Sequence record: OQ561750
Strand: one strand, 5' to 3'
Source of the DNA: Escherichia phage LHE83
Length of the DNA: 64,000 nucleotides
Positions 3,298-60,850 of the stretch are shown in pieces (positions within the stretch are counted from its first letter, which is position 1; every line of letters starts with the position of its first letter). Below the pieces are notes generated by a model. That model saw only the letters and a program-made list of their open reading frames with translations, had not been told where the DNA came from and did no database searches. Both the position numbers and the translations under genes were made by a program.

Positions 3298-3756
3298 ATG
3301 TCAGAAATTAATTCAGAAGTATTCATCCGCCGCAATAAATTACGTCGTCAGTTCGAAACCGAATTCCGCGAACTGAATGCGTCCATCAAAAAAGCCGCCA
3401 TTAAGAGCGGAGTCCCAGCCTTCTTTATTAAGTACTCTAATCACTTGTTGGACCGTGCTATCCAACGTGAAATCGACGAAAAATACGTTTTTGCTTTATT
3501 CAAGCAACTCCATAACCATGTTAAAGAAATTCATGAATTTTTAATCCAGGAACCTCTGCCTGATGTAGAAGCCGAAATCATTCCTGGTAAAGTGTATCGC
3601 CCATTGCGTCTCGAAATTACCGATAAAACCTTATGGCTAGGTATGACTGTAGATCGTAAACATCCTGATAAAGGATACTCGTTAAAATGTCGTATGGCAT
3701 TTGTTAACTCTAAACGTTTAGAAGGTAAAACCAGCACGAAAGTAATCTATCTTTAA
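3298..3756 (+). CDS. regB: RegB site-specific endoribonuclease
   Basis: Internal ATG after the promoter cassette; MSEINSEVFIRRNKLRR...LLDRAIQREIDE resembles T4 RegB; track start 3139 runs through the promoter. Confidence 0.85.
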   Translation: MSEINSEVFIRRNKLRRQFETEFRELNASIKKAAIKSGVPAFFIKYSNHLLDRAIQREIDEKYVFALFKQLHNHVKEIHEFLIQEPLPDVEAEIIPGKVYRPLRLEITDKTLWLGMTVDRKHPDKGYSLKCRMAFVNSKRLEGKTSTKVIYL

Positions 3757-3768
3757 TAATGAGGTCTC

Positions 3769-4308
3769 ATGAAAAAAGTATTAGCCACTTTACTATTGAC
3801 AGTTAGTATGTCTGCCCATAGCGTAGAGCCTACTTTCAGTAATGAACAACTCGATAATTTACATTATGCGTATGCTTTCGGTGAACAATACCAAAAGTCG
3901 GGAAAGTTCAAAGAAACCCCTAATCAAAAAGGATTAGGATATATCATGGCCGGATTACTATGGCAGGAATCATCCGCCGGAATTAATCAAGGTTTAAATA
4001 AAGATAAGCACCATGCTTATGGCATGTTCCAAAATTACTTGCCTACGTTAAGAAGTCGTGTTCAACAGGTAGGTTGGAAGATGTCTGACAAAGAAATAAT
4101 TCGTATGGTCCAAAAACGACAGAACAGTGCCTCTTGGGCCTACATTGAACTGTCTTATTGGATTGATGTTCACAAAGGTGACCTGAGAAAAGCGATTGCT
4201 TCTTATAATGCGGGCTGGAACGCCAAAGCAGGCAGTAAATATGCTTCTGAAGTTCTAGAAAAGGCCAATTACCTAAAATCTAAAAAGATGTTTGAGGCGG
4301 TGTATTAA
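3769..4308 (+). CDS. secreted lytic transglycosylase-like protein
   Basis: N-terminal signal peptide; motifs LWQESSAG, AYGMFQ and SYNAGWN resemble the SLT-domain catalytic Glu-Ser and AYNAG motifs. Confidence 0.55.
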   Translation: MKKVLATLLLTVSMSAHSVEPTFSNEQLDNLHYAYAFGEQYQKSGKFKETPNQKGLGYIMAGLLWQESSAGINQGLNKDKHHAYGMFQNYLPTLRSRVQQVGWKMSDKEIIRMVQKRQNSASWAYIELSYWIDVHKGDLRKAIASYNAGWNAKAGSKYASEVLEKANYLKSKKMFEAVY

Positions 4309-14006: not shown

Positions 14007-14040
14007 GTTTACATCCAAGGACGGATGGAGTATAATCTTT
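14007..14040 (+). promoter_or_regulatory. early promoter
   Basis: GTTTAC then TATAAT with about 19 nt spacing, then CTACTGAGGAG Shine-Dalgarno. Confidence 0.5.
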
Positions 14041-19000: not shown

Positions 19001-19201
19001 ATGAATCCTGAATCTAAATTATCACAGCGAATTGCTGAAGCTCGTCGTCAGTTCTTTGAAAATATGATAGCCCAAGGTATTGATGACGAAGTTTTTCTGA
19101 ACTGGTTTTGGAACCACAAATATTCAAGTTGTTCAGGCGCTTTATTAATTTCAGCTGCATCTATGTACGAAGGCTGGAAAGGTGCAATGAGTCAAAAATA
19201 G
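19001..19201 (+). CDS. hypothetical protein
   Basis: ORF track. Confidence 0.5.
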   Translation: MNPESKLSQRIAEARRQFFENMIAQGIDDEVFLNWFWNHKYSSCSGALLISAASMYEGWKGAMSQK

Positions 19202-19232
19202 TTTACAAACTCTTGGGACCAGAGTATAATGG
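19201..19232 (+). promoter_or_regulatory. early promoter
   Basis: GTTTAC then 18 nt then TATAAT; GGACC/GGTCC inverted repeat flanks the -10. Confidence 0.5.
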
Positions 19233-19268
19233 TCCTACGGATTATAAATTTTAACTGAGGAAATTATT

Positions 19269-47940: not shown

Positions 47941-48237
47941 ATGTACTATGCATACGTATTAGTTCACAAGGACAAAGACGGGTACGAAATTCCATTAGAA
48001 GAGGCCGGTGAAGTGACTTTGTATTCGACAAAGATTGGAGCCGATACCGCTCTATCCGTTTATGAAATGTCAACAAAAAGATATCTTCGGCTTGGACGCC
48101 TTGAAACGGTGTGCACACCTAGAAAATGGTGGTTTGATAAGTGGGAAACTAAAACAGTATATCCTACCGAAGAACGAGCCCGAGAACTTAAATTAGTTTT
48201 AGACACTTTATATGTTAAGCGAGTAAAATTGGCATGA
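47941..48237 (+). CDS. hypothetical protein
   Basis: ATG after AGAGG Shine-Dalgarno (track start 47938 is GTG). Confidence 0.5.
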   Translation: MYYAYVLVHKDKDGYEIPLEEAGEVTLYSTKIGADTALSVYEMSTKRYLRLGRLETVCTPRKWWFDKWETKTVYPTEERARELKLVLDTLYVKRVKLA

Positions 48238-49565
48238 TTACATTTGAAGACTTGAACAACGGCCAGAGGACGGCCTTTAAAGAAATCATTGAAGCTATTA
48301 AACGACGTAAGGGTGAATGGATTACATTGAACGGTCCTGCTGGTACAGGTAAAACAACCCTTACCAAATTTATTCTTGACCATCTAGTCAAGAATGGTGA
48401 ACTCGGAGTTATTTTGACTGCGCCTACTCATGCGGCCAAAAAGGTATTGTCGAAACTCGCAGGTCAAGAAGCATCAACAATTCATAGAATTCTAAAAATT
48501 AACCCTACTACGTACGAAGACCAGGACATCTTTGAACAACGCGAAGCTCCTGACTTGAGCAAATGTAATGTTCTAGTTGTTGACGAAGGCTCGATGATTG
48601 ACGGTAAGCTGTTTAAGATTATTGAATCCTCCGTGCCACCATGGTGTACTGTATTAGGGATTGGCGACAGAGCTCAGCTACAGCCAGTGGAACCTGGAAG
48701 TGATGGTAGCCCTCAGTTGTCTCCATTCTTTACACATCCAAAAATCAAACAATTACATTTGACTGAAGTGATGCGTAGTAATGCTCCTATCATTGAGGTG
48801 GCTACTGAAATCCGTAATGGTGGGTGGTTTAGAGATTGTGTATTCGAAGGACATGGTGTCCATGGTTTTAAATCCCAAACAGCATTAAAAGATTTTATGA
48901 TGAATTATTTTTCCATTGTAAAAGATGCTGATGCCCTGTTTGAGAATAGGATGTTTGCTTATACCAATAAATCGGTTGAAAAGCTGAATAGCATTATTCG
49001 TAAAAAGCTTTATGAAACCGATGCACCTTATATCAAGGGCGAAATCCTAGTGATGCAAGAGCCTTTTATGAAGGAACTTGAATACGATGGTAAGAAATTC
49101 TCTGAAACCATTTTTAATAACGGACAAATGGTTCGTATTCTGGATGTGAACCATACCTCGTTGTTTTTGTCTGCTAAGGATGTAGGCACTCGTCAAATGA
49201 TTAATTACTGGGACCTGCAAGTAGAATCTGTTGATGAAGACGACGAGTACTATGTAGAGCATTTAAAGGTTATCGATGAGGCTTCAGTTGAGAAGTTCCA
49301 TTATTTCTTGGCTAAGGTTGCTACAGAGTACAAAGCCATGCGTGGTAGTGGTAAGAAACCTAAGTGGGCTGATTTCTGGAAAGCCAAGCGAATGTTCAGT
49401 AAGGTTCGAGCTCTTCCTGTGAGCACTGTTCATAAATCCCAAGGACTTACAGTCCAAAACAGTTTCATCTATACTCCATGCATGCATATGGCTGATGCGA
49501 ATTTAGCTTCACAGCTGGCTTATGTTAGTATTACTCGTGCTCGTACTGACGCCTACTACGTTTGA
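48234..49565 (+). CDS. dda: Dda DNA helicase (SF1B)
   Basis: 443 aa; Walker A GPAGTGKTT, VDEGSM; C-terminal VSITRAR; syntenic. Confidence 0.9.
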   Translation: MITFEDLNNGQRTAFKEIIEAIKRRKGEWITLNGPAGTGKTTLTKFILDHLVKNGELGVILTAPTHAAKKVLSKLAGQEASTIHRILKINPTTYEDQDIFEQREAPDLSKCNVLVVDEGSMIDGKLFKIIESSVPPWCTVLGIGDRAQLQPVEPGSDGSPQLSPFFTHPKIKQLHLTEVMRSNAPIIEVATEIRNGGWFRDCVFEGHGVHGFKSQTALKDFMMNYFSIVKDADALFENRMFAYTNKSVEKLNSIIRKKLYETDAPYIKGEILVMQEPFMKELEYDGKKFSETIFNNGQMVRILDVNHTSLFLSAKDVGTRQMINYWDLQVESVDEDDEYYVEHLKVIDEASVEKFHYFLAKVATEYKAMRGSGKKPKWADFWKAKRMFSKVRALPVSTVHKSQGLTVQNSFIYTPCMHMADANLASQLAYVSITRARTDAYYV

Positions 49566-49572
49566 GGAAAAT

Positions 49573-49812
49573 ATGATTAAAGTAACTAAAGACCAATTTT
49601 ATAAGTTGAAATTCGAAACCGAACATATTATTAAAGTCAACCAAAATAATATCAGCATTAGGCAAAAGGCCCATACTGTCCTGAACTCTCTTAAAGAGAT
49701 TGAAAGTGATTTTATTGCAGTACAAAATCTGATGGACGACAATATCTCTTCGGTTTATATTGAAGACTACACCGTTGGCCAAATCCGAGACCTTATGAGG
49801 TACGTTAAATGA
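49573..49812 (+). CDS. hypothetical protein
   Basis: Internal ATG after GAGGAAAAT Shine-Dalgarno of track ORF 49522. Confidence 0.45.
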   Translation: MIKVTKDQFYKLKFETEHIIKVNQNNISIRQKAHTVLNSLKEIESDFIAVQNLMDDNISSVYIEDYTVGQIRDLMRYVK

Positions 49813-50483
49813 AAGATATAATTATTGACTTTGAAACCTTTGCCACTACTCAAAATGCAGCGGTTATCGACCTAGCCGTAATTGCTTACGACCCTAATCC
49901 AGAGGTTGTAGAAACGTTTGAAGAGCTTACTAAACGAGGCCTTCGTATTAAATTTGACCTCGCTTCTCAACGTGATAAACGACTGTTTTCTAAAAGCACG
50001 TTGCAGTGGTGGAAAGAGCAAGGGCCTGAAGCGCGTAAAAACCTGGCTCCATCTGAAATTGATGTGTCCACTTCTATTGGTCTCGGTAATTTCCTGGAAT
50101 ACTGTCGTAAAAACGAAGTAGACCAATGGAAATCCCAGATGTGGTGTCGTGGAATGTCCTTTGACTTTCCTATCTTAGTCGACCTTATTCGTGATGCTTA
50201 TCGTTCTGAAGGGGTTCCTGAGAATGAAATCGATACCAGTAAATTAGAACCGGTTAAATTCTGGAACCAACGTGACATCCGTACAGCTATTGAAGCATAT
50301 TCACTAACTCGTGGATTGAGCATGTGTCCTCTGCCTAACGGAACATTGAACGGCTTTGTTGCTCATGACTCCATCCATGACTGTGCTAAGGATATCTTGA
50401 TGCTGAAATATGCCCAACGTTATGCCTTAGGCCTGGAAGATGTCCCTGAGAATCCGGACCCATTAAGTATAAAAAATCGATAA
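49809..50483 (+). CDS. dexA: exonuclease A (DexA)
   Basis: 224 aa; N-terminal IIDFETF DEDD-type exonuclease motif; syntenic. Confidence 0.8.
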   Translation: MKDIIIDFETFATTQNAAVIDLAVIAYDPNPEVVETFEELTKRGLRIKFDLASQRDKRLFSKSTLQWWKEQGPEARKNLAPSEIDVSTSIGLGNFLEYCRKNEVDQWKSQMWCRGMSFDFPILVDLIRDAYRSEGVPENEIDTSKLEPVKFWNQRDIRTAIEAYSLTRGLSMCPLPNGTLNGFVAHDSIHDCAKDILMLKYAQRYALGLEDVPENPDPLSIKNR

Positions 50484-50487
50484 AAGT

Positions 50488-50520
50488 GTTTACTTCTCCT
50501 CATGACATGTTATTATCTAC
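50488..50520 (+). promoter_or_regulatory. early promoter cassette
   Basis: GTTTAC...TGTTATTATCTACCCTATCAAC; CTCCTCATG/CATGAGGAG inverted repeat includes the Shine-Dalgarno. Confidence 0.55.
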
Positions 50521-50543
50521 CCTATCAACATGAGGAGAACAAA

Positions 50544-51053
50544 ATGAAAATTTATCGAGTCGAGTCATCGTTCAGTATCTTAGATAACAGCGATGTTATA
50601 GCAATCACTCACCAACAGTGCCGCCAATTAACACCGTATAGAGGCTCGTTTGATGAATGGAGCGAAGGTTGGTTATTAGAAGTAGGTTTCGACAGACCCA
50701 ATTTTAGGCACCACCATACCAATAATAAAAATATTCCGCTACCAGGTCAAGACAAGTTGTTGGTGGAAAATTCTAATAAAAGCATTAGAACTAAGTGGAA
50801 CCAGCCTGATTATGAAGGCTGTGATGATTATATTCCAGGTTGGTTTGTTAATCTCTACCATTTTGCTTTTGCCAGTGAGTATGATATGATGCGCTGGTTC
50901 ACTCGTGAAGAGCGTGAAGAATTATCTTCTAAAGGATTCTATCTTGCCGTTTACGAAATCCCTGAAGATGAGGTTGTCATTGGTGGCCGCCAAGTAATGT
51001 TCCGCAAATCCCATGCTGAACTCGTAGATTTTATTGAATTGAGAACAATATGA
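50544..51053 (+). CDS. hypothetical protein
   Basis: ATG after GAGGAGAAC Shine-Dalgarno; track start 50502 lies inside the promoter. Confidence 0.5.
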   Translation: MKIYRVESSFSILDNSDVIAITHQQCRQLTPYRGSFDEWSEGWLLEVGFDRPNFRHHHTNNKNIPLPGQDKLLVENSNKSIRTKWNQPDYEGCDDYIPGWFVNLYHFAFASEYDMMRWFTREEREELSSKGFYLAVYEIPEDEVVIGGRQVMFRKSHAELVDFIELRTI

Positions 51054-51598
51054 AATTTAATTACAACCCTAAATACACCCCGAATCCGGCAGCTAAACTG
51101 ATTGATTTTGATGTTTTAAGCACTTATGTATGCCCTGTTAAACCACTGGAAATTAAGGAACCTGCTATGAATACTCAGACTATCGAAATCGGCAAAACCT
51201 ACAAACTGGTTGAACCTGAAATTAAAACTAAGGCCTTGATTTCCGGCCATAAAACCCTGACTGATGTTTTTGGTGAAGGCGAATTTATTGTTGAAGAATT
51301 TGCCAAAAGTGAGTGGTTCTCTAAAGCCTATATTCTCCACGGCCGTCGTTTAGACAATAACAAAATTGAGCAAACCCTGGTTTATGAAGATGAGTTCATC
51401 CTGTTCCAAGAAGTTGAAGAACAAGACCCTACCGACCTTCTAACTCGTGCTGTGTCTATCCGTCGTCCTTTTGATAATCCTATCTGTGGATGGGTAACAG
51501 ACCAGTGGGTTGAAGACGGTGTTGAGCTGCTGAACGTTGTACATGCTGGTGATTTTAGCGTAGTACCTCGTAGTGCAGTGGTTAATGTATTGAATTAG
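51050..51598 (+). CDS. hypothetical protein (tandem paralog A)
   Basis: ORF track; C-terminal TDQWVEDGVELLNVV shared with the next gene. Confidence 0.55.
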   Translation: MKFNYNPKYTPNPAAKLIDFDVLSTYVCPVKPLEIKEPAMNTQTIEIGKTYKLVEPEIKTKALISGHKTLTDVFGEGEFIVEEFAKSEWFSKAYILHGRRLDNNKIEQTLVYEDEFILFQEVEEQDPTDLLTRAVSIRRPFDNPICGWVTDQWVEDGVELLNVVHAGDFSVVPRSAVVNVLN

Positions 51599-51600
51599 TA

Positions 51601-51630
51601 GTTTACTTTATCGAGAGCCATGTTATAATG
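51601..51630 (+). promoter_or_regulatory. early promoter
   Basis: GTTTAC then 17 nt then TATAAT; GAGAGCCAT/ATGGCTCTC inverted repeat. Confidence 0.55.
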
Positions 51631-51671
51631 GCTCTCATGGAGAATAAACTTATTAACCAAGAGAGAAAATT

Positions 51672-52223
51672 ATGATTACTATCGGTGAAATTGTTCGTGT
51701 ATCCAAAGAATCTCGCTCAAAAGCCGCAGGTCGTTTTGTTGAAGTTGCAGGTATTCGTACTAATTTAGTAGGCGGAATTAAAGAAGTTAAAGTGCGTATT
51801 ATTCCTAAAAATGGCCATACCGAAACCGAATTTGCCTATGTGCATCCTAAATTCTTGGAATCGACTGAATTTACTGGACACATCGCTCCTGTAGTTGAAG
51901 AAGTTGAATCCCATGATGGGTATGTATGTGAAAGCAATGATATCCGTGGCGTAGTAGCTCAAGACGTTGAAACTATTGACCAATCTCATGTTGGTGTTGA
52001 TTTCAAATGGAAATTAGGTAAAGGTGTCTTTTTCGTTTCACCTAAACCGTTTGAATACAATTGCAAGTATGGCCCGACTTATGAAACCACTAGTATGTCC
52101 GGTTACATCACAGACCAATGGGTTGAAGAAGGTGTTAAGCTGTATAACATCGTGTTCCTTGGCACCTTTAAAGTAGTTCCTGAAAGTTTTATTGTTGAGT
52201 ACGCTGATATTCATTTTGCATAA
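51672..52223 (+). CDS. hypothetical protein (tandem paralog B)
   Basis: ORF track; C-terminal TDQWVEEGVKLYNIV. Confidence 0.55.
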   Translation: MITIGEIVRVSKESRSKAAGRFVEVAGIRTNLVGGIKEVKVRIIPKNGHTETEFAYVHPKFLESTEFTGHIAPVVEEVESHDGYVCESNDIRGVVAQDVETIDQSHVGVDFKWKLGKGVFFVSPKPFEYNCKYGPTYETTSMSGYITDQWVEEGVKLYNIVFLGTFKVVPESFIVEYADIHFA

Positions 52224-52295
52224 AGTTTAAAAACAGTATACACTATGGTAGGGTAGTGATACTATTACCCTATCAACAAATGAGAGGAAAATAAA

Positions 52296-52514
52296 ATGGC
52301 TAAAGTTACTGTGAACTCGACTCGTGAAGAATTTGAAGATGTTCTGTTCAACCCTGATTTAATCGTGGTTCAAAAGGAACATTCTGATACGTTTTCTCAT
52401 TTATCGTCGGTTTATGTATACGAAAACCAAGGTGACAAAAATCCTATCTATGCAGTGTTCCGTGAAATCACTGCTGAAGGCATTGACTACTGGAAGGAGA
52501 CTTATAATGTCTAA
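52296..52514 (+). CDS. hypothetical protein
   Basis: ORF track. Confidence 0.5.
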   Translation: MAKVTVNSTREEFEDVLFNPDLIVVQKEHSDTFSHLSSVYVYENQGDKNPIYAVFREITAEGIDYWKETYNV

Positions 52515-52911
52515 TGAAGCTAAATTTGAAGCCGGTAAATGGTACTATTTTAAAGATGAGGCGGCCGAAGCTGAATTCCGTCGTAGAGATATCAATAATA
52601 TTGTAGCCGATGTTATTATTGAAGGTGAAGGTTTTTCCCCGGTTAAAATTTCAAATGGATGTGTAATCAACTTCGACCTGGTTTACGGCGATAATAAAGA
52701 TATGGTTATATACGCTAGTGAGAGGAAATTTTTTACCGAAATGGTTGAAGTTGAGTGCGACGAAGAATTGGATGAAGACCGTGATTATGGCTACGATGAT
52801 AGTGATGATCTGTCCGAACTAAGTGATTTCCCTTTGACTAAAATCACTATCTCTAATAATTCTGAAGCCTGGTCAGTTTACCAGATGTTGAAAGCTCACT
52901 TTAAGGAATAA
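52507..52911 (+). CDS. hypothetical acidic protein
   Basis: Internal ATG after AGGAGA Shine-Dalgarno of track ORF 52414. Confidence 0.5.
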   Translation: MSNEAKFEAGKWYYFKDEAAEAEFRRRDINNIVADVIIEGEGFSPVKISNGCVINFDLVYGDNKDMVIYASERKFFTEMVEVECDEELDEDRDYGYDDSDDLSELSDFPLTKITISNNSEAWSVYQMLKAHFKE

Positions 52912-52912
52912 T

Positions 52913-53089
52913 ATGCCACTTTATGATTACAAATGCCAATCTGAAGACTGTGCAAAAGAATACGAAAAAATCAAGAAAATCTCTGAAAGAGATAATGATG
53001 TTTGTCCTGATTGCCATCGGCTGGCTGTTCGGTTAGTCTCGGCTCCTAAACATGTTAATGGCGGTTTTTACGACCTGCTGACTAAGTGA
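52913..53089 (+). CDS. FmdB-type zinc-ribbon protein (58 aa)
   Basis: Read by eye; MPLYDYKCQSEDC...CPDCH pattern; AAGGAA Shine-Dalgarno. Confidence 0.5.
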   Translation: MPLYDYKCQSEDCAKEYEKIKKISERDNDVCPDCHRLAVRLVSAPKHVNGGFYDLLTK

Positions 53090-53095
53090 GAAATT

Positions 53096-53356
53096 ATGAA
53101 ATATATTAATCGTTCTATTGCAGCTCTCGTATTAGCAGTTTCTTTGGTTGGATGTACTGATGCCGATAATGCTACCCGTGTATTGGATGCAAATGGCTAC
53201 GAACAAATCCAAATCACAGGATACAACCTATTTGGCTGCTCTGAAGATGATTTCCAACGTACAGGCTTTATTGCTGTGGGTCCGACAGGTAAAAGGGTTG
53301 AAGGAACTGTTTGTTCTGGATTATTCTTTAAAAAGTCGACCATTCGATTTGATTAA
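53096..53356 (+). CDS. hypothetical lipoprotein
   Basis: Signal peptide plus LVGC lipobox. Confidence 0.55.
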   Translation: MKYINRSIAALVLAVSLVGCTDADNATRVLDANGYEQIQITGYNLFGCSEDDFQRTGFIAVGPTGKRVEGTVCSGLFFKKSTIRFD

Positions 53357-53373
53357 GGGCTTCGGCCCTTTTA
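53355..53373 (+). terminator. rho-independent terminator
   Basis: GGGC-TTCG-GCCC followed by TTTTAT. Confidence 0.5.
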
Positions 53374-53422
53374 TGCTTTAAGTGAAATGGGATAATATTC
53401 TCCTACTACATGAGGAAATAAC

Positions 53423-55240
53423 ATGATTAAGAATGAAATTAAAGTACTGTCCGACATTGAACATATCAAAAAACGTAGTGGGATGTATATTGGCTCAAGT
53501 GCTAATGAAGCTCACGGTCGATTCCTGTTTGGTAATTTTACACAGGTAAACTATGTTCCTGGACTGGTTAAATTAATTGATGAAATCATTGATAACTCTG
53601 TCGATGAAGCTATTCGTACCAATTTTAAATTCGCAAATAAAATTGATGTTCAAATTAAGAATAACCAGGTTTCAGTTTCTGATAATGGTCGTGGTATTCC
53701 ACAAGCAATGGTCACCGACCAAAATGGTGAACAGATTCCAGGTCCTGTAGCTGCATGGACTATTCCAAAGGCAGGTGGTAACTTTGGAGATGACGCTGAG
53801 CGTAAGACAGGCGGCATGAATGGTGTCGGTAGTAGTTTAACTAATATCTTCTCTGTTTTGTTCACCGGCATCACCTCTGATGGTGAGAATGAGATTACTG
53901 TTAACTGTTCAAACGGAATGGAAAACAAAGGTTGGTCTACTAAGAAATCTAAAGGTAAGGGTACTTCGGTTATATTCACCCCAGACTTTAATCATTTCGA
54001 AGAAAATAGCCTGTCACAAATTTATCTGGATATTACATTAGACCGATTGCAAACTCTGGCCGTAGTTTATCCTGATATTCAATTTACTTTTAATGGTAAA
54101 AAAGTAGATGGCAACTTTAAAAAGTATGCTAAGCAATTTGGTGAAGACTTTGTAATCCAAGAAACCGATAATGTTTCGATGGCATTTACTCCTTCTCCGG
54201 ATGGATTCCGTCAACTGACTTATGTAAACAATATCCACACCAAGAATGGTGGCCACCACGTTGAATGTGTATTCGATGATATTTGTGAACACCTTCTGCC
54301 AGGCATTAAAAAGAAATACCGTGGAATTGAAGTAACTAAAGCTCGTGTTAAAGAATGCCTTACGATGGTGATGTTCATTCGTGATATGAGCAACATGCGT
54401 TTTGATTCACAGACTAAAGAACGTTTGACCTCTCCTTTTGGTGAGATTCGCAATCATATCCAAATTGATGCTAAGAAAATTGCTCAAGCCATTCTTAAAG
54501 TTGATGGGTTGATTATGCCTATCGTTGAAGCTGCTTTAGCACGTAAATTAGCAGCTGAAAAGGCTGCCGAAACTAAAGCCGCTAAGAAAGCTTCTAAAGC
54601 CAAGGTCCATAAGCATATTAAAGCTAACCTATACGGCAAAGATGCTGATACAACCCTGTTCCTAACCGAAGGTGATTCCGCTATGGGTCCTTTCATTGAA
54701 GTTCGTAATAAAGACCTTCAAGGTGGTTACCCATTGCGTGGTAAGGTTATGAATACCTGGGGAATGACAGCAACAGATATCATGAAGAACAAGGAACTAT
54801 TTGATATCTGTGCAATCACTGGATTGGTTATTGGTGAACCCGCAGATAAAACCAACTATCGTAATATTGCTATTATGACCGATGCCGATGTGGATGGTAC
54901 TGGTTCGATTTATCCATCATTGCTAGCCTTCTTTAGTCAATGGCCCGAATTGTTCGAACAAGGCCGAGTACGGTTCTGTAAAACTCCGGTGATTATTGCT
55001 CAGGTTGGTAAAGAACAGGAATGGTTCTATGATGTGCCTAGTTATACCAAAGCTAAGGACTCTCTACCAAAACACTCCATTCGTTATATCAAAGGACTGG
55101 GTTCTCTTGAGAAGGCTGAATACCGTCGAATGATTCAAGACCCTAAATTTGATGTGGTTCAATTACCTGAAGATTGGAAAGAACAGTTCGAAATGCTCCT
55201 TGGTAATGACCCACAACTCCGTAAGGCCTGGATGTCGTAA
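53423..55240 (+). CDS. 39: DNA topoisomerase II large subunit gp39, full length (GyrB-like; unsplit 39+60)
   Basis: 605 aa continuous ORF; GHKL ATPase motifs (IDNSVDEA, GMNGVGSS) and TOPRIM (EGDSA); C-terminal part corresponds to T4 gp60. Confidence 0.9.
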   Translation: MIKNEIKVLSDIEHIKKRSGMYIGSSANEAHGRFLFGNFTQVNYVPGLVKLIDEIIDNSVDEAIRTNFKFANKIDVQIKNNQVSVSDNGRGIPQAMVTDQNGEQIPGPVAAWTIPKAGGNFGDDAERKTGGMNGVGSSLTNIFSVLFTGITSDGENEITVNCSNGMENKGWSTKKSKGKGTSVIFTPDFNHFEENSLSQIYLDITLDRLQTLAVVYPDIQFTFNGKKVDGNFKKYAKQFGEDFVIQETDNVSMAFTPSPDGFRQLTYVNNIHTKNGGHHVECVFDDICEHLLPGIKKKYRGIEVTKARVKECLTMVMFIRDMSNMRFDSQTKERLTSPFGEIRNHIQIDAKKIAQAILKVDGLIMPIVEAALARKLAAEKAAETKAAKKASKAKVHKHIKANLYGKDADTTLFLTEGDSAMGPFIEVRNKDLQGGYPLRGKVMNTWGMTATDIMKNKELFDICAITGLVIGEPADKTNYRNIAIMTDADVDGTGSIYPSLLAFFSQWPELFEQGRVRFCKTPVIIAQVGKEQEWFYDVPSYTKAKDSLPKHSIRYIKGLGSLEKAEYRRMIQDPKFDVVQLPEDWKEQFEMLLGNDPQLRKAWMS

Positions 55241-60271: not shown

Positions 60272-60305
60272 GTTTACATACACCAAGGATGGTGTTACTA
60301 TCTTC
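60272..60305 (+). promoter_or_regulatory. early promoter cassette
   Basis: GTTTAC...GTGTTACTATCTTCCTATCAACT; CACCA/TGGTG inverted repeat. Confidence 0.5.
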
Positions 60306-60329
60306 CTATCAACTTGAGAGGAAAACAAA

Positions 60330-60587
60330 ATGAAATTCTATTACGCCAAACATAAAATTACCCGTGAGTTTGTATCGTTTTCAACCTTTTCAGATGAAGA
60401 AGACTTTTGCATCACTGGTCTGGATTTATCTAAATATGAAACCGACCAGCCTTATTTGACCACTCATGACGAGATTCAACGTTTGGTGAACGGTGAGCTA
60501 AATAATTCTTACTGCACTCAAATTTACCCTGCTTTGAAAAAAGCTATCAATGCTAATCAGATTGAAATCATTGAGGTGGAATTGTGA
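60330..60587 (+). CDS. hypothetical protein (tandem paralog)
   Basis: ORF track; KFYYAKHK N-terminus shared with the next gene. Confidence 0.5.
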   Translation: MKFYYAKHKITREFVSFSTFSDEEDFCITGLDLSKYETDQPYLTTHDEIQRLVNGELNNSYCTQIYPALKKAINANQIEIIEVEL

Positions 60588-60850
60588 ATATCAAATTATA
60601 TTACGCTAAACACAAAGTTACGGGTACGGTTGTTGCCGCCATGTATGACGCGTCAGGTGATGGTGACGATATTACTACAGAGTTATCTCTTTCTGAATGT
60701 AAATTTCTCCGTCCTTTAATCGCATCAAAGGAAGATTTACAAAAACTTATCGATGGAAAACTGGATAATGTTGATGGCATAGATATTCTTTATGACCTTC
60801 GCACTGCATTGTACAGAGGATTGATTGAAATTAAAGAGGTAGTATTTTGA
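60584..60850 (+). CDS. hypothetical protein (tandem paralog)
   Basis: GTG start with GAGGTGG Shine-Dalgarno; KLYYAKHK N-terminus. Confidence 0.5.
   Translation: MNIKLYYAKHKVTGTVVAAMYDASGDGDDITTELSLSECKFLRPLIASKEDLQKLIDGKLDNVDGIDILYDLRTALYRGLIEIKEVVF

What the first reader, a model, noticed from the sequence alone, without database searches (positions are those of the whole stretch)
51050..52223. Tandem paralog pair with a conserved C-terminal module, separated by a promoter cassette
The 182-aa and 183-aa proteins share a C-terminal block (GWVTDQWVEDGVELLNVVHAGDFSVVP versus GYITDQWVEEGVKLYNIVFLGTFKVVP) with divergent N-termini. A second tandem pair at 60330-60850 shares (K)xYYAKHK N-termini and IEIxEV C-termini. 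Tandem duplication followed by diversification is typical of host-interaction genes under selection.
Basis: seen in the sequence. Interest (0 to 1): 0.4.

Follow-up and report, generated by a model that had tools for sequence, protein, structure and literature searches.

The report
Known phage MotB.1/MotB gene pair
The two neighbouring genes are motB.1 and motB of a JS98-like T-even phage. Their shared C-terminal domain and the promoter-plus-hairpin cassette between them are real, but both have already been published, so the finding is correct and ordinary.

Summary
ORFs 51050-51598 (182 aa) and 51672-52223 (183 aa) share a C-terminal block (BLASTP 19/34 identical, E=3e-11; profile-profile 98.7%, 50 columns). 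The window is a Dhakavirus (JS98-like) genome, and the genes are motB.1 and motB, lying between dexA/motB.2 and cef.

Son et al. 2021 (PMC7827196) published the shared C-terminal domain (CTD), the differing N-terminal domains (NTDs) and the duplication idea. Kim et al. 2025 (PMC12152347) described the LSm-like barrel of MotB.1. The 73-nt spacer is a "promoter-early stem-loop" (PeSL) cassette of the kind described by Arbiol et al. 2010 (PMC2839356). It reads GTTTAC-17-TATAAT, with a hairpin over the -10 that stays paired in all 12 phages compared.

The "diversification under selection" reading is only partly right:
- The duplication is ancient (synonymous sites near saturation).
- The shared core is under purifying selection.
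- The N-termini differ by domain replacement (KOW versus another small barrel), not by gradual divergence.

The second pair (60330-60850) is also truly paralogous (34% identity, E=6e-14).

Side results:
- The 119-aa T4 reference MotB.1 comes from a single extra G found only in the reference record.
- Klebsiella and Edwardsiella T4-like phages carry one hybrid gene at this locus.

The parts
50484..50543 (+). Promoter-early stem-loop (PeSL) cassette between dexA and motB.2. -35 GTTTAC at 50488-50493; -10 TATTAT at 50511-50516. An 11-bp hairpin (50494-50504 with 50529-50539) has the Shine-Dalgarno GAGGAG of motB.2 in its 3' arm.
   Evidence: Sequence; pattern match; inverted repeat I2; RNA fold -14.8 kcal/mol, z=-3.1. 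T4 has the same layout with different stem bases.
50544..51053 (+). motB.2, function unknown. The likely true start is the ATG at 50544 (MKIYRVESSF, as in T4), not the first ATG of the ORF at 50502. Its stop overlaps the motB.1 start (ATGA).
   Evidence: ORF list; phrog_1106 E=1.8e-54; T4 MotB.2 translation; JS98 annotation.
51050..51598 (+). motB.1 (182 aa). Residues 1-39: N-terminal extension predicted disordered, carrying the conserved motif IDFDVLSTYVCPVKP. Residues ~44-122: small beta-barrel (LSm/SH3-like). Then an acidic linker (EEQDPTDLL). Residues ~130-180: MotB-type C-terminal domain.
51482..51583 (+). Shared core of the C-terminal module in MotB.1 (residues 145-178, ICGWVTDQWVEDGVELLNVVHAGDFSVVPRSAVV).
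   Evidence: BLASTP; hhalign; near-invariant across genera.
51599..51671 (+). PeSL cassette between motB.1 and motB. -35 GTTTAC at 51601-51606; extended -10 TGTTATAAT ending at 51629. A 9-bp hairpin (51613-51621 with 51628-51636) overlaps the -10. Shine-Dalgarno GAGAGA lies before the ATG at 51672.
   Evidence: RNA fold -24.5 kcal/mol, z=-6.4. In 12 phages, 100% of 96 cells are paired and 5 of 8 pairs show compensatory changes; slid controls give 32-45%. Matches the PeSL description in PMC2839356.
51672..52223 (+). motB (183 aa). Residues 1-63: KOW-like basic N-terminal barrel. Residues 66-104: acidic disordered linker with a ~20-aa insert absent from T4. Residues 105-183: C-terminal beta domain.
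52095..52196 (+). Shared core of the C-terminal module in MotB (residues 142-175, MSGYITDQWVEEGVKLYNIVFLGTFKVVPESFIV).
52224..52295 (+). Putative third PeSL, between motB and cef. Weak -35 TATACA at 52237-52242; -10 TACTAT at 52260-52265, lying in the loop and 3' arm of a 13-bp hairpin (52246-52258 with 52263-52275).
   Evidence: RNA fold -16.7 kcal/mol, z=-3.0. T4 has the same layout with a different stem. The promoter hexamers were read by eye and fell below the scan threshold.
60272..60329 (+). PeSL upstream of the second pair: GTTTAC...TACTAT with the stem ACACCA/TGGTGT in the spacer.
60330..60587 (+). Second pair, copy A (85 aa, phrog_2390, function unknown). Rare: only 2 phage records are at least 99% identical; 617 of 620 records with a match are below 60% (44-55% in the rows listed).
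60584..60850 (+). Second pair, copy B (88 aa, GTG start, phrog_2390). This is the copy resident in Dhakavirus: 93-94% identical to the single copy of phages AnYang and WG01.

Best explanation
This is the motB.1-motB early-gene pair of a JS98-like (Dhakavirus) T-even phage. It sits in the conserved run dda - dexA - motB.2 - motB.1 - motB - cef - goF - 39.

Both proteins consist of two small beta-barrel domains joined by a flexible acidic linker. They share only the C-terminal domain.
- MotB has a basic KOW-like N-terminal barrel.
- MotB.1 has an unrelated acidic LSm/SH3-like barrel, plus a short conserved motif in a disordered stretch.

The pair is old. It most likely arose from a single KOW+CTD gene of the kind still found at this locus in Klebsiella and Edwardsiella T4-like phages. 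After duplication, the upstream copy exchanged its KOW barrel for another barrel but kept the linker and CTD almost unchanged. The downstream copy kept KOW and modified its CTD.

The spacer is a promoter-early stem-loop cassette (PeSL). A strong sigma-70 early promoter gives motB its own transcript. The hairpin over the -10 forms only in RNA read through from upstream, where it probably attenuates transcription or protects the 3' end.

Function:
- Taken from the T4 literature: MotB binds DNA non-specifically, remodels H-NS binding and doubles burst size.
- My inference: the DNA contact comes from the basic KOW barrel and the basic first hairpin of the CTD. The shared acidic core is a common scaffold or partner-binding surface that takes MotB.1 to the same place.
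For: Identity and synteny.

Shared CTD.

Age and selection: saturated synonymous divergence between the paralogues and purifying selection within each. The tandem pair is present in all 19 related loci examined.

Single hybrid gene at the syntenic locus in two outgroup phages and among the 31 family representatives.

PeSL: promoter enrichment of 16 against 0.21 expected; hairpin covariation, with G-U pairs that work only on the + strand; literature.

Charge: the shared core is net -1.4 to -4.4 in all four proteins, MotB.1 has pI 4.6-4.8, and the basic residues lie in the MotB NTD and CTD beta1-beta2.

Published biology.
Against: No function was tested here.
- Son et al. assign the MotB CTD to an OB/cold-shock DNA-binding fold by HHpred. 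If that is right, the shared module is itself the nucleic-acid binder.
- The MotB.1 model has only moderate confidence (pLDDT 65.7; CTD about 70).
- The "ancestral single gene" reading rests on two genomes and a handful of representatives, with no rooted tree. A secondary fusion is not excluded.
- The selection estimates use only 32 codons.
- The window's MotB is acidic overall (pI 5.4), unlike T4 MotB (9.23), so its DNA binding may differ.
Confidence: 0.85

Rival explanations
1. One reading: a fairly recent tandem duplication whose copies are diversifying under positive selection, as is typical of host-interaction genes.
For: The genes are adjacent and share a module. MotB acts on host chromatin proteins. 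MotB.1 N-terminal architecture varies widely between phages.
Against: Synonymous divergence between the paralogues is 0.52-0.86 per site. Fixed paralogue-specific residues are shared across Tequatrovirus, Dhakavirus and RB69-like phages. pN/pS is about 0.14-0.21 within each copy. The N-termini show no sequence similarity at all, which fits domain replacement.
Confidence: 0.07
2. The shared C-terminal module is the nucleic-acid-binding OB/cold-shock-like domain proposed in the literature. On this view both MotB and MotB.1 are nucleic-acid binders that differ in their second domain: DNA/KOW for MotB and RNA/LSm-like for MotB.1.
For: HHpred assignment of the MotB CTD to SCOPe b.40.4.5. MotB binds DNA tightly. 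LSm-like folds often bind RNA. The CTD is a 4-5-stranded beta domain.
Confidence: 0.3
3. The similarity is a chance or compositional match, or the ORFs are not real genes.
For: The matching stretch is short (34 aa by BLASTP).
Against: E=3e-11 with compositional adjustment and hhalign probability 98.7%. Both genes are conserved and annotated in hundreds of phages: 739 records match the MotB.1 query and 250 protein clusters match MotB.1.
Confidence: 0.01

Closest known systems
T4 MotB (Pfam PF17613; Patterson-West 2018, PMC6070864; Son 2021, PMC7827196)
   Same: The 183-aa protein matches the whole model (172.8 bits). It sits in the same syntenic position and has the same KOW-like NTD plus CTD layout.
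   Different: About 49% identical to T4-type MotB. It carries a ~20-aa acidic insert in the linker, which makes the whole protein acidic (pI 5.4 against 9.23).
T4 MotB.1 and the 'MotB.1 group' (Son 2021 categories 2-4; Kim 2025 LSm-like fold family, PMC12152347)
   Same: It lies immediately upstream of motB. It has the same linker (DPTDLL) and a nearly identical CTD, preceded by a small beta-barrel.
   Different: The barrel belongs to a different sequence type from T4's. A 39-aa N-terminal extension with a conserved motif precedes it. The T4 protein used in the literature (119 aa) lacks most of the CTD because of a frameshift peculiar to the reference record.
PeSL, promoter-early stem-loop cassettes of RB49/phi1 (Arbiol et al. 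2010, PMC2839356)
   Same: An intergenic stop codon, an early sigma-70 promoter, a stem-loop overlapping the -10 with G-T pairs, then Shine-Dalgarno and ATG. The cassette is repeated many times in the early-gene region.
   Different: PeSLs were described in a distant T4-type lineage, and here the stems are not the GGGG...CCCC type. Terminator activity and recombination were not tested for these copies.

Membership tests
MotB family (Pfam PF17613) | Whole-protein score above the Pfam gathering cut-off (25 bits) | tested here: met
   MotB scores 172.8 bits over most of the model. MotB.1 scores 35.8 bits, but only on model positions 118-153.
MotB family (Pfam PF17613) | KOW-like N-terminal domain (VSxxSRSKxAG ... 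GYV) | tested here: met
MotB family (Pfam PF17613) | Non-specific DNA binding and an effect on H-NS | not testable with these tools
   Known only from T4 experiments.
MotB.1 / phage LSm-like fold family (Kim et al. 2025) | Gene immediately upstream of motB carrying a MotB-type CTD | tested here: met
MotB.1 / phage LSm-like fold family (Kim et al. 2025) | N-terminal bent five-stranded antiparallel beta-sheet (LSm/SH3-like) | tested here: met
MotB.1 / phage LSm-like fold family (Kim et al. 2025) | Sequence relationship to GoF and Frd.2 N-terminal domains | tested here: inconclusive
   There is a weak hit of residues 44-126 to phrog_622, the family of the window's GoF-like protein (E=7e-6). BLASTP against that protein finds nothing.
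PeSL regulatory cassette (Arbiol et al. 2010) | Intergenic sigma-70-like early promoter followed by Shine-Dalgarno and ATG | tested here: met
   GTTTAC-17-TATAAT at 51601-51629. The pattern is enriched 16 against 0.21 expected, all on the + strand.
PeSL regulatory cassette (Arbiol et al. 2010) | Stable stem-loop within or overlapping the promoter | tested here: met
   z=-6.4. 100% pairing with 5 of 8 covarying pairs across 12 phages.
PeSL regulatory cassette (Arbiol et al. 2010) | Terminator/attenuator activity and recombination between cassettes | not testable with these tools
   Indirect only. A cassette at 19198-19268 repeats the T4-type motB PeSL almost exactly in front of an unrelated gene.
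OB-fold / cold-shock DNA-binding domain (literature assignment for the CTD) | Five-stranded OB barrel topology with structural matches to OB proteins | tested here: inconclusive

The most novel reading that the evidence does not exclude
The pair descends from a single KOW+CTD gene that survives in Klebsiella and Edwardsiella T4-like phages. The shared, strongly conserved acidic CTD core would then be a partner-binding or oligomerisation module rather than the DNA-binding surface, so that MotB and MotB.1 act on the same target or on each other. In addition, the published biochemistry and null phenotypes of T4 MotB.1 may not reflect the natural protein. The 13.8-kDa size reported in that work is that of the 119-aa reference ORF, which lacks most of this module, whereas 13 other T4-type records encode 143 aa.
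Probability: 0.3. Interest if true: 0.35.

Novelty: already known. Interest (0 to 1): 0.15.

Why it matters
As stated, the finding matters little. The shared domain, the differing N-termini, the duplication idea and the promoter/stem-loop cassette are all in print. The window is one more JS98-like phage (99% identical to phage LQ5 over 50400-52400).

Three by-products are of modest use to T4 specialists:
- The reference T4 motB.1 ORF is truncated by a single extra G that is absent from 13 other T4-type records. Work based on the 119-aa protein may therefore have missed the conserved domain.
- A single hybrid gene in outgroup phages gives a concrete evolutionary path for the pair.
- The shared core is acidic, which argues against it being the DNA-binding surface.

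Tried and rejected
- PDB sequence searches gave nothing useful. MotB had only a designed-repeat hit at E=0.68. MotB.1 had a weak hit to a plant protein-kinase N-terminal region, E=6.7e-4, with Pfam DUF1221 at 0.012. I treated this as spurious.
- NCBIfam and PADLOC gave no hits for either pair or for motB.2.
- Rfam on 49500-53500 returned one sub-threshold snoRNA match, which is noise.
- BLASTP of the MotB.1 barrel against the window's GoF-like protein found no similarity.
- The consensus terminator scan found no intrinsic terminator in the spacers, because the hairpins lack a U-tract.
- The T4 genome review (PMC150520) is not held, so I could not check the published T4 promoter and terminator tables.
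- I considered programmed frameshifting in T4 motB.1 and rejected it. All other T4 records simply lack the extra G.
- I considered whether the hybrid single genes could arise by deletion between the two CTD repeats. That would join the MotB.1 NTD to the MotB CTD, which is the opposite of what is seen.

Full report
**What is there.** The region 49.5-53.5 kb carries a run of + strand genes:
- a Dda-like helicase (48234-49565)
- a small ORF
- DexA exonuclease (49809-50483)
- a 169/183-aa protein of phrog_1106
- the 182-aa ORF (51050-51598)
- the 183-aa ORF (51672-52223)
- cef (52296-52514)
- a GoF-like protein, two small proteins, and topoisomerase gp39 (53423-55240)

Megablast places the window in the JS98-like T-even phages (Dhakavirus). 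The best match is Escherichia phage LQ5 at 99.1% over 50400-52400. In JS98 the three genes after dexA are annotated motB.2, motB.1 and motB. T4 has the same order. The finding is therefore the motB.1-motB pair.

**Checking the observation.**
- BLASTP of the two proteins gives 19/34 identities, E=3e-11, and nothing significant elsewhere.
- The Pfam motB model covers the 183-aa protein end to end (E=6e-51). It covers only residues 142-177 of the 182-aa protein (E=9e-9, above the curated cut-off).
- I collected homologues of each protein, aligned them (A1 and A2) and compared the two profiles. The result was probability 98.7%, E=1.6e-16 over 50 columns, MotB.1 130-180 against MotB 114-177, with a 12-14-residue insertion in MotB.

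The similarity is real. It is not compositional, and it spans the whole C-terminal domain rather than only the 27 residues quoted.

**It is already published.**
- Son et al. [quoted passage not shown] They suggest one gene arose by duplication of the other, and they sort 102 homologues into MotB and MotB.1 groups. They predict a KOW motif in the MotB NTD and an OB/cold-shock fold in the CTD.
- Patterson-West et al. 2018 show that MotB binds DNA non-specifically, co-purifies with H-NS/StpA, is toxic to E. coli and doubles burst size.

**Structure.**
- MotB (AF2, mean pLDDT 73.8): a barrel at residues 1-63, a disordered stretch at 66-104, and a confident five-strand beta domain at 105-183.
- MotB.1 (AF2, mean pLDDT 65.7): a disordered stretch at 1-42, a barrel at about 44-122 (pLDDT about 80), and a four-strand C-terminal sheet at 134-173 (pLDDT about 70).
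- No OB or cold-shock protein is in either top 60. The tool does not report which residues aligned, so the fold of the CTD on its own stays open.
- The viral structure library returns MotB.1/MotB relatives, including the T4 "13.8 kDa protein".

**Age and selection.** I compared the 32-codon shared core in 13 genomes.
- Within MotB.1, mean non-synonymous and synonymous differences are 0.062 and 0.43.
- Within MotB they are 0.14 and 0.68.
- Between the two paralogues in one genome they are 0.30-0.38 and 0.52-0.86, so synonymous sites are near saturation.
- Paralogue-specific residues (ELLNVVHAG against KLYNIVFLG) are fixed across T4-like, JS98-like and RB69-like phages.

The duplication is therefore ancient and both copies are constrained. 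The sample is small and the region short, so these are indications rather than a formal test.

**The N-termini differ by replacement.** Among 19 related loci, every genome has motB.1 directly upstream of motB, and RB69-like phages add a second motB. MotB.1 ranges from 71 to 251 aa. It may have no barrel, a T4-type barrel, the window-type barrel, two barrels, or an extra N-terminal domain. All of these are joined to the same DPTDLL linker and a nearly invariant CTD. A short motif ([IM]D[FMT]D[VIL]xSxY..P) lies in the disordered part. It comes before the barrel in the window type and after it in others.

**A single hybrid gene in outgroups.** A profile search of 1.84 billion representative proteins found only 31 family members at 50% clustering. 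Several of them combine a MotB-type KOW NTD with the motif, the DPTDLL linker and a MotB.1-type CTD. At the syntenic locus (dexA/motB.2 - X - cef), Klebsiella phage CP-p-KP-21072 and Edwardsiella phage PEi26 each carry exactly one such gene. The simplest reading has two steps:
- An ancestral KOW+CTD gene was duplicated in the lineage leading to the E. coli T-even genera.
- The upstream copy then swapped its KOW barrel, while the downstream copy altered its linker and CTD.

This is inference without a rooted tree.

**The "promoter cassette".** The 73-nt spacer has GTTTAC (51601-51606), a 17-nt spacer and an extended -10 TGTTATAAT. The pattern GTTTAC-N16-18-TAYWAT occurs 16 times in the window, all on the + strand, against 0.21 expected.

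A 9-bp hairpin (51613-51621 with 51628-51636) overlaps the -10. The spacer folds at -24.5 kcal/mol, z=-6.4. Across 12 phages, 8 aligned pairs are paired in 100% of 96 cells. Five pairs show changes on both sides, and slid controls give 32-45%. The one-sided changes are G-U or U-G pairs, which hold only on the + strand, so the structure is most likely read as RNA.

This is the promoter-early stem-loop (PeSL) cassette of Arbiol et al. 2010. They showed promoter and terminator activity and recombination between cassettes in RB49/phi1, and they mention PeSL-like sequences in JS98. Transcripts that start at this promoter begin after the stem, so the hairpin exists only in read-through RNA.

The dexA-motB.2 and motB-cef spacers have the same layout, in the window and in T4. 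In the first of these the 3' arm contains the motB.2 Shine-Dalgarno sequence.

**Mechanism.**
- Shown in the literature for T4: MotB binds DNA and changes H-NS footprints.
- Inferred here: in all four proteins examined the shared core is acidic (net -1.4 to -4.4), and MotB.1 as a whole has pI 4.6-4.8. The basic residues of MotB lie in the KOW barrel and the first hairpin of the CTD.

I therefore favour DNA contact through the MotB-specific basic parts. The shared core would act as a scaffold or partner-binding surface common to both proteins. The published OB-fold DNA-binding view remains a serious rival.

The window's MotB is acidic overall (pI 5.4), because of an insert in the linker that T4 lacks.

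**The second pair.** ORFs 60330-60587 and 60584-60850 are 34% identical over their full length (E=6e-14) and belong to one PHROG of unknown function. They lie after denB.
- Copy B is the resident Dhakavirus gene, 93-94% identical to the single copy in AnYang and WG01.
- Copy A is rare. Only two records are at least 99% identical, and 617 of the 620 matching records are below 60%; the Tequatrovirus- and Mosigvirus-type rows listed are 44-55% identical, which is closer than copy A is to copy B.
- Copy A has its own PeSL upstream.

This looks like insertion of a cassette rather than local duplication.

**Verdict.** The feature is already known, so interest is low.

Noticed in passing
L002 (T4 NC_000866) 3720-3810, minus strand; compare window 51497-51598: The T4 reference motB.1 (119 aa, '13.8 kDa') ends early because of one extra G (ATTGGAAG instead of ATTGAAG). 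The rest of the conserved CTD is intact in the +1 frame. Thirteen other T4-type records (re-sequenced T4, T4T, RB55, RB59) encode an uninterrupted 143-aa protein. Only AF158101.6 and NC_000866.4 show the break. The MotB.1 papers I read do not mention this.
   Followed up: yes
L023:2237-2680 (Klebsiella phage CP-p-KP-21072); L024:2225-2680 (Edwardsiella phage PEi26): There is one gene at the syntenic locus instead of the pair. It has a MotB-type KOW N-terminus joined to the DPTDLL linker and a MotB.1-type CTD, and may resemble the ancestor.
   Followed up: partly
window 50484-50543: In the dexA-motB.2 cassette the hairpin's 3' arm contains the motB.2 Shine-Dalgarno GAGGAG, and the -10 lies in the loop. 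Read-through RNA would therefore mask the ribosome site, while promoter-initiated RNA would not. T4 has the same arrangement with different stem bases.
   Followed up: partly
window 19198-19268 and 14007-14036: A cassette in front of an unrelated 109-aa gene repeats the T4-type motB PeSL almost base for base (GTTTACAAACTCTTGGGACCAGAGTATAATGGTCCT). The cassette at 14007 resembles the RB69-type motB spacer. This fits PeSLs being portable, repeated elements.
   Followed up: partly
window 51050-51166 (MotB.1 residues 1-39): A conserved short motif (IDFDVLSTYVCPVKP; general form [IM]D[FMT]D[VIL]xSxY..P) sits in a stretch predicted to be disordered. It lies on either side of the barrel in different phages, and also occurs in the single-gene hybrids. 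It may be a linear interaction motif; its partner is unknown.
   Followed up: no
window 51867-51983 (MotB residues 66-104): The MotB linker carries an acidic ~20-aa insert (VVEEVESHDGYVCESNDIRGVVAQD) that T4 lacks. It turns the whole protein from basic (T4 pI 9.23) to acidic (pI 5.4).
   Followed up: no
L017, L018, L019 (RB69-like loci): These phages carry motB.1, motB and a second, shorter motB (139 aa). The ORF-based start of the first motB lies upstream at an ATG overlapping the motB.1 stop, which adds about 20 residues. The conserved MIxIGEI start preceded by a Shine-Dalgarno sequence looks more likely.
   Followed up: no
window 60330-60587: Copy A of the small paralogue pair is present in very few sequenced phages. 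It is closer to the Tequatrovirus/Mosigvirus version than to its neighbour, copy B. Many Dhakaviruses have only copy B.
   Followed up: partly
window 51140-51475 (MotB.1 residues 31-142): There are weak but mutually consistent sequence hits to the N-terminal region of a plant protein kinase (PDB 6lba, E=6.7e-4) and to Pfam DUF1221 (E=0.012). They are probably spurious.
   Followed up: no
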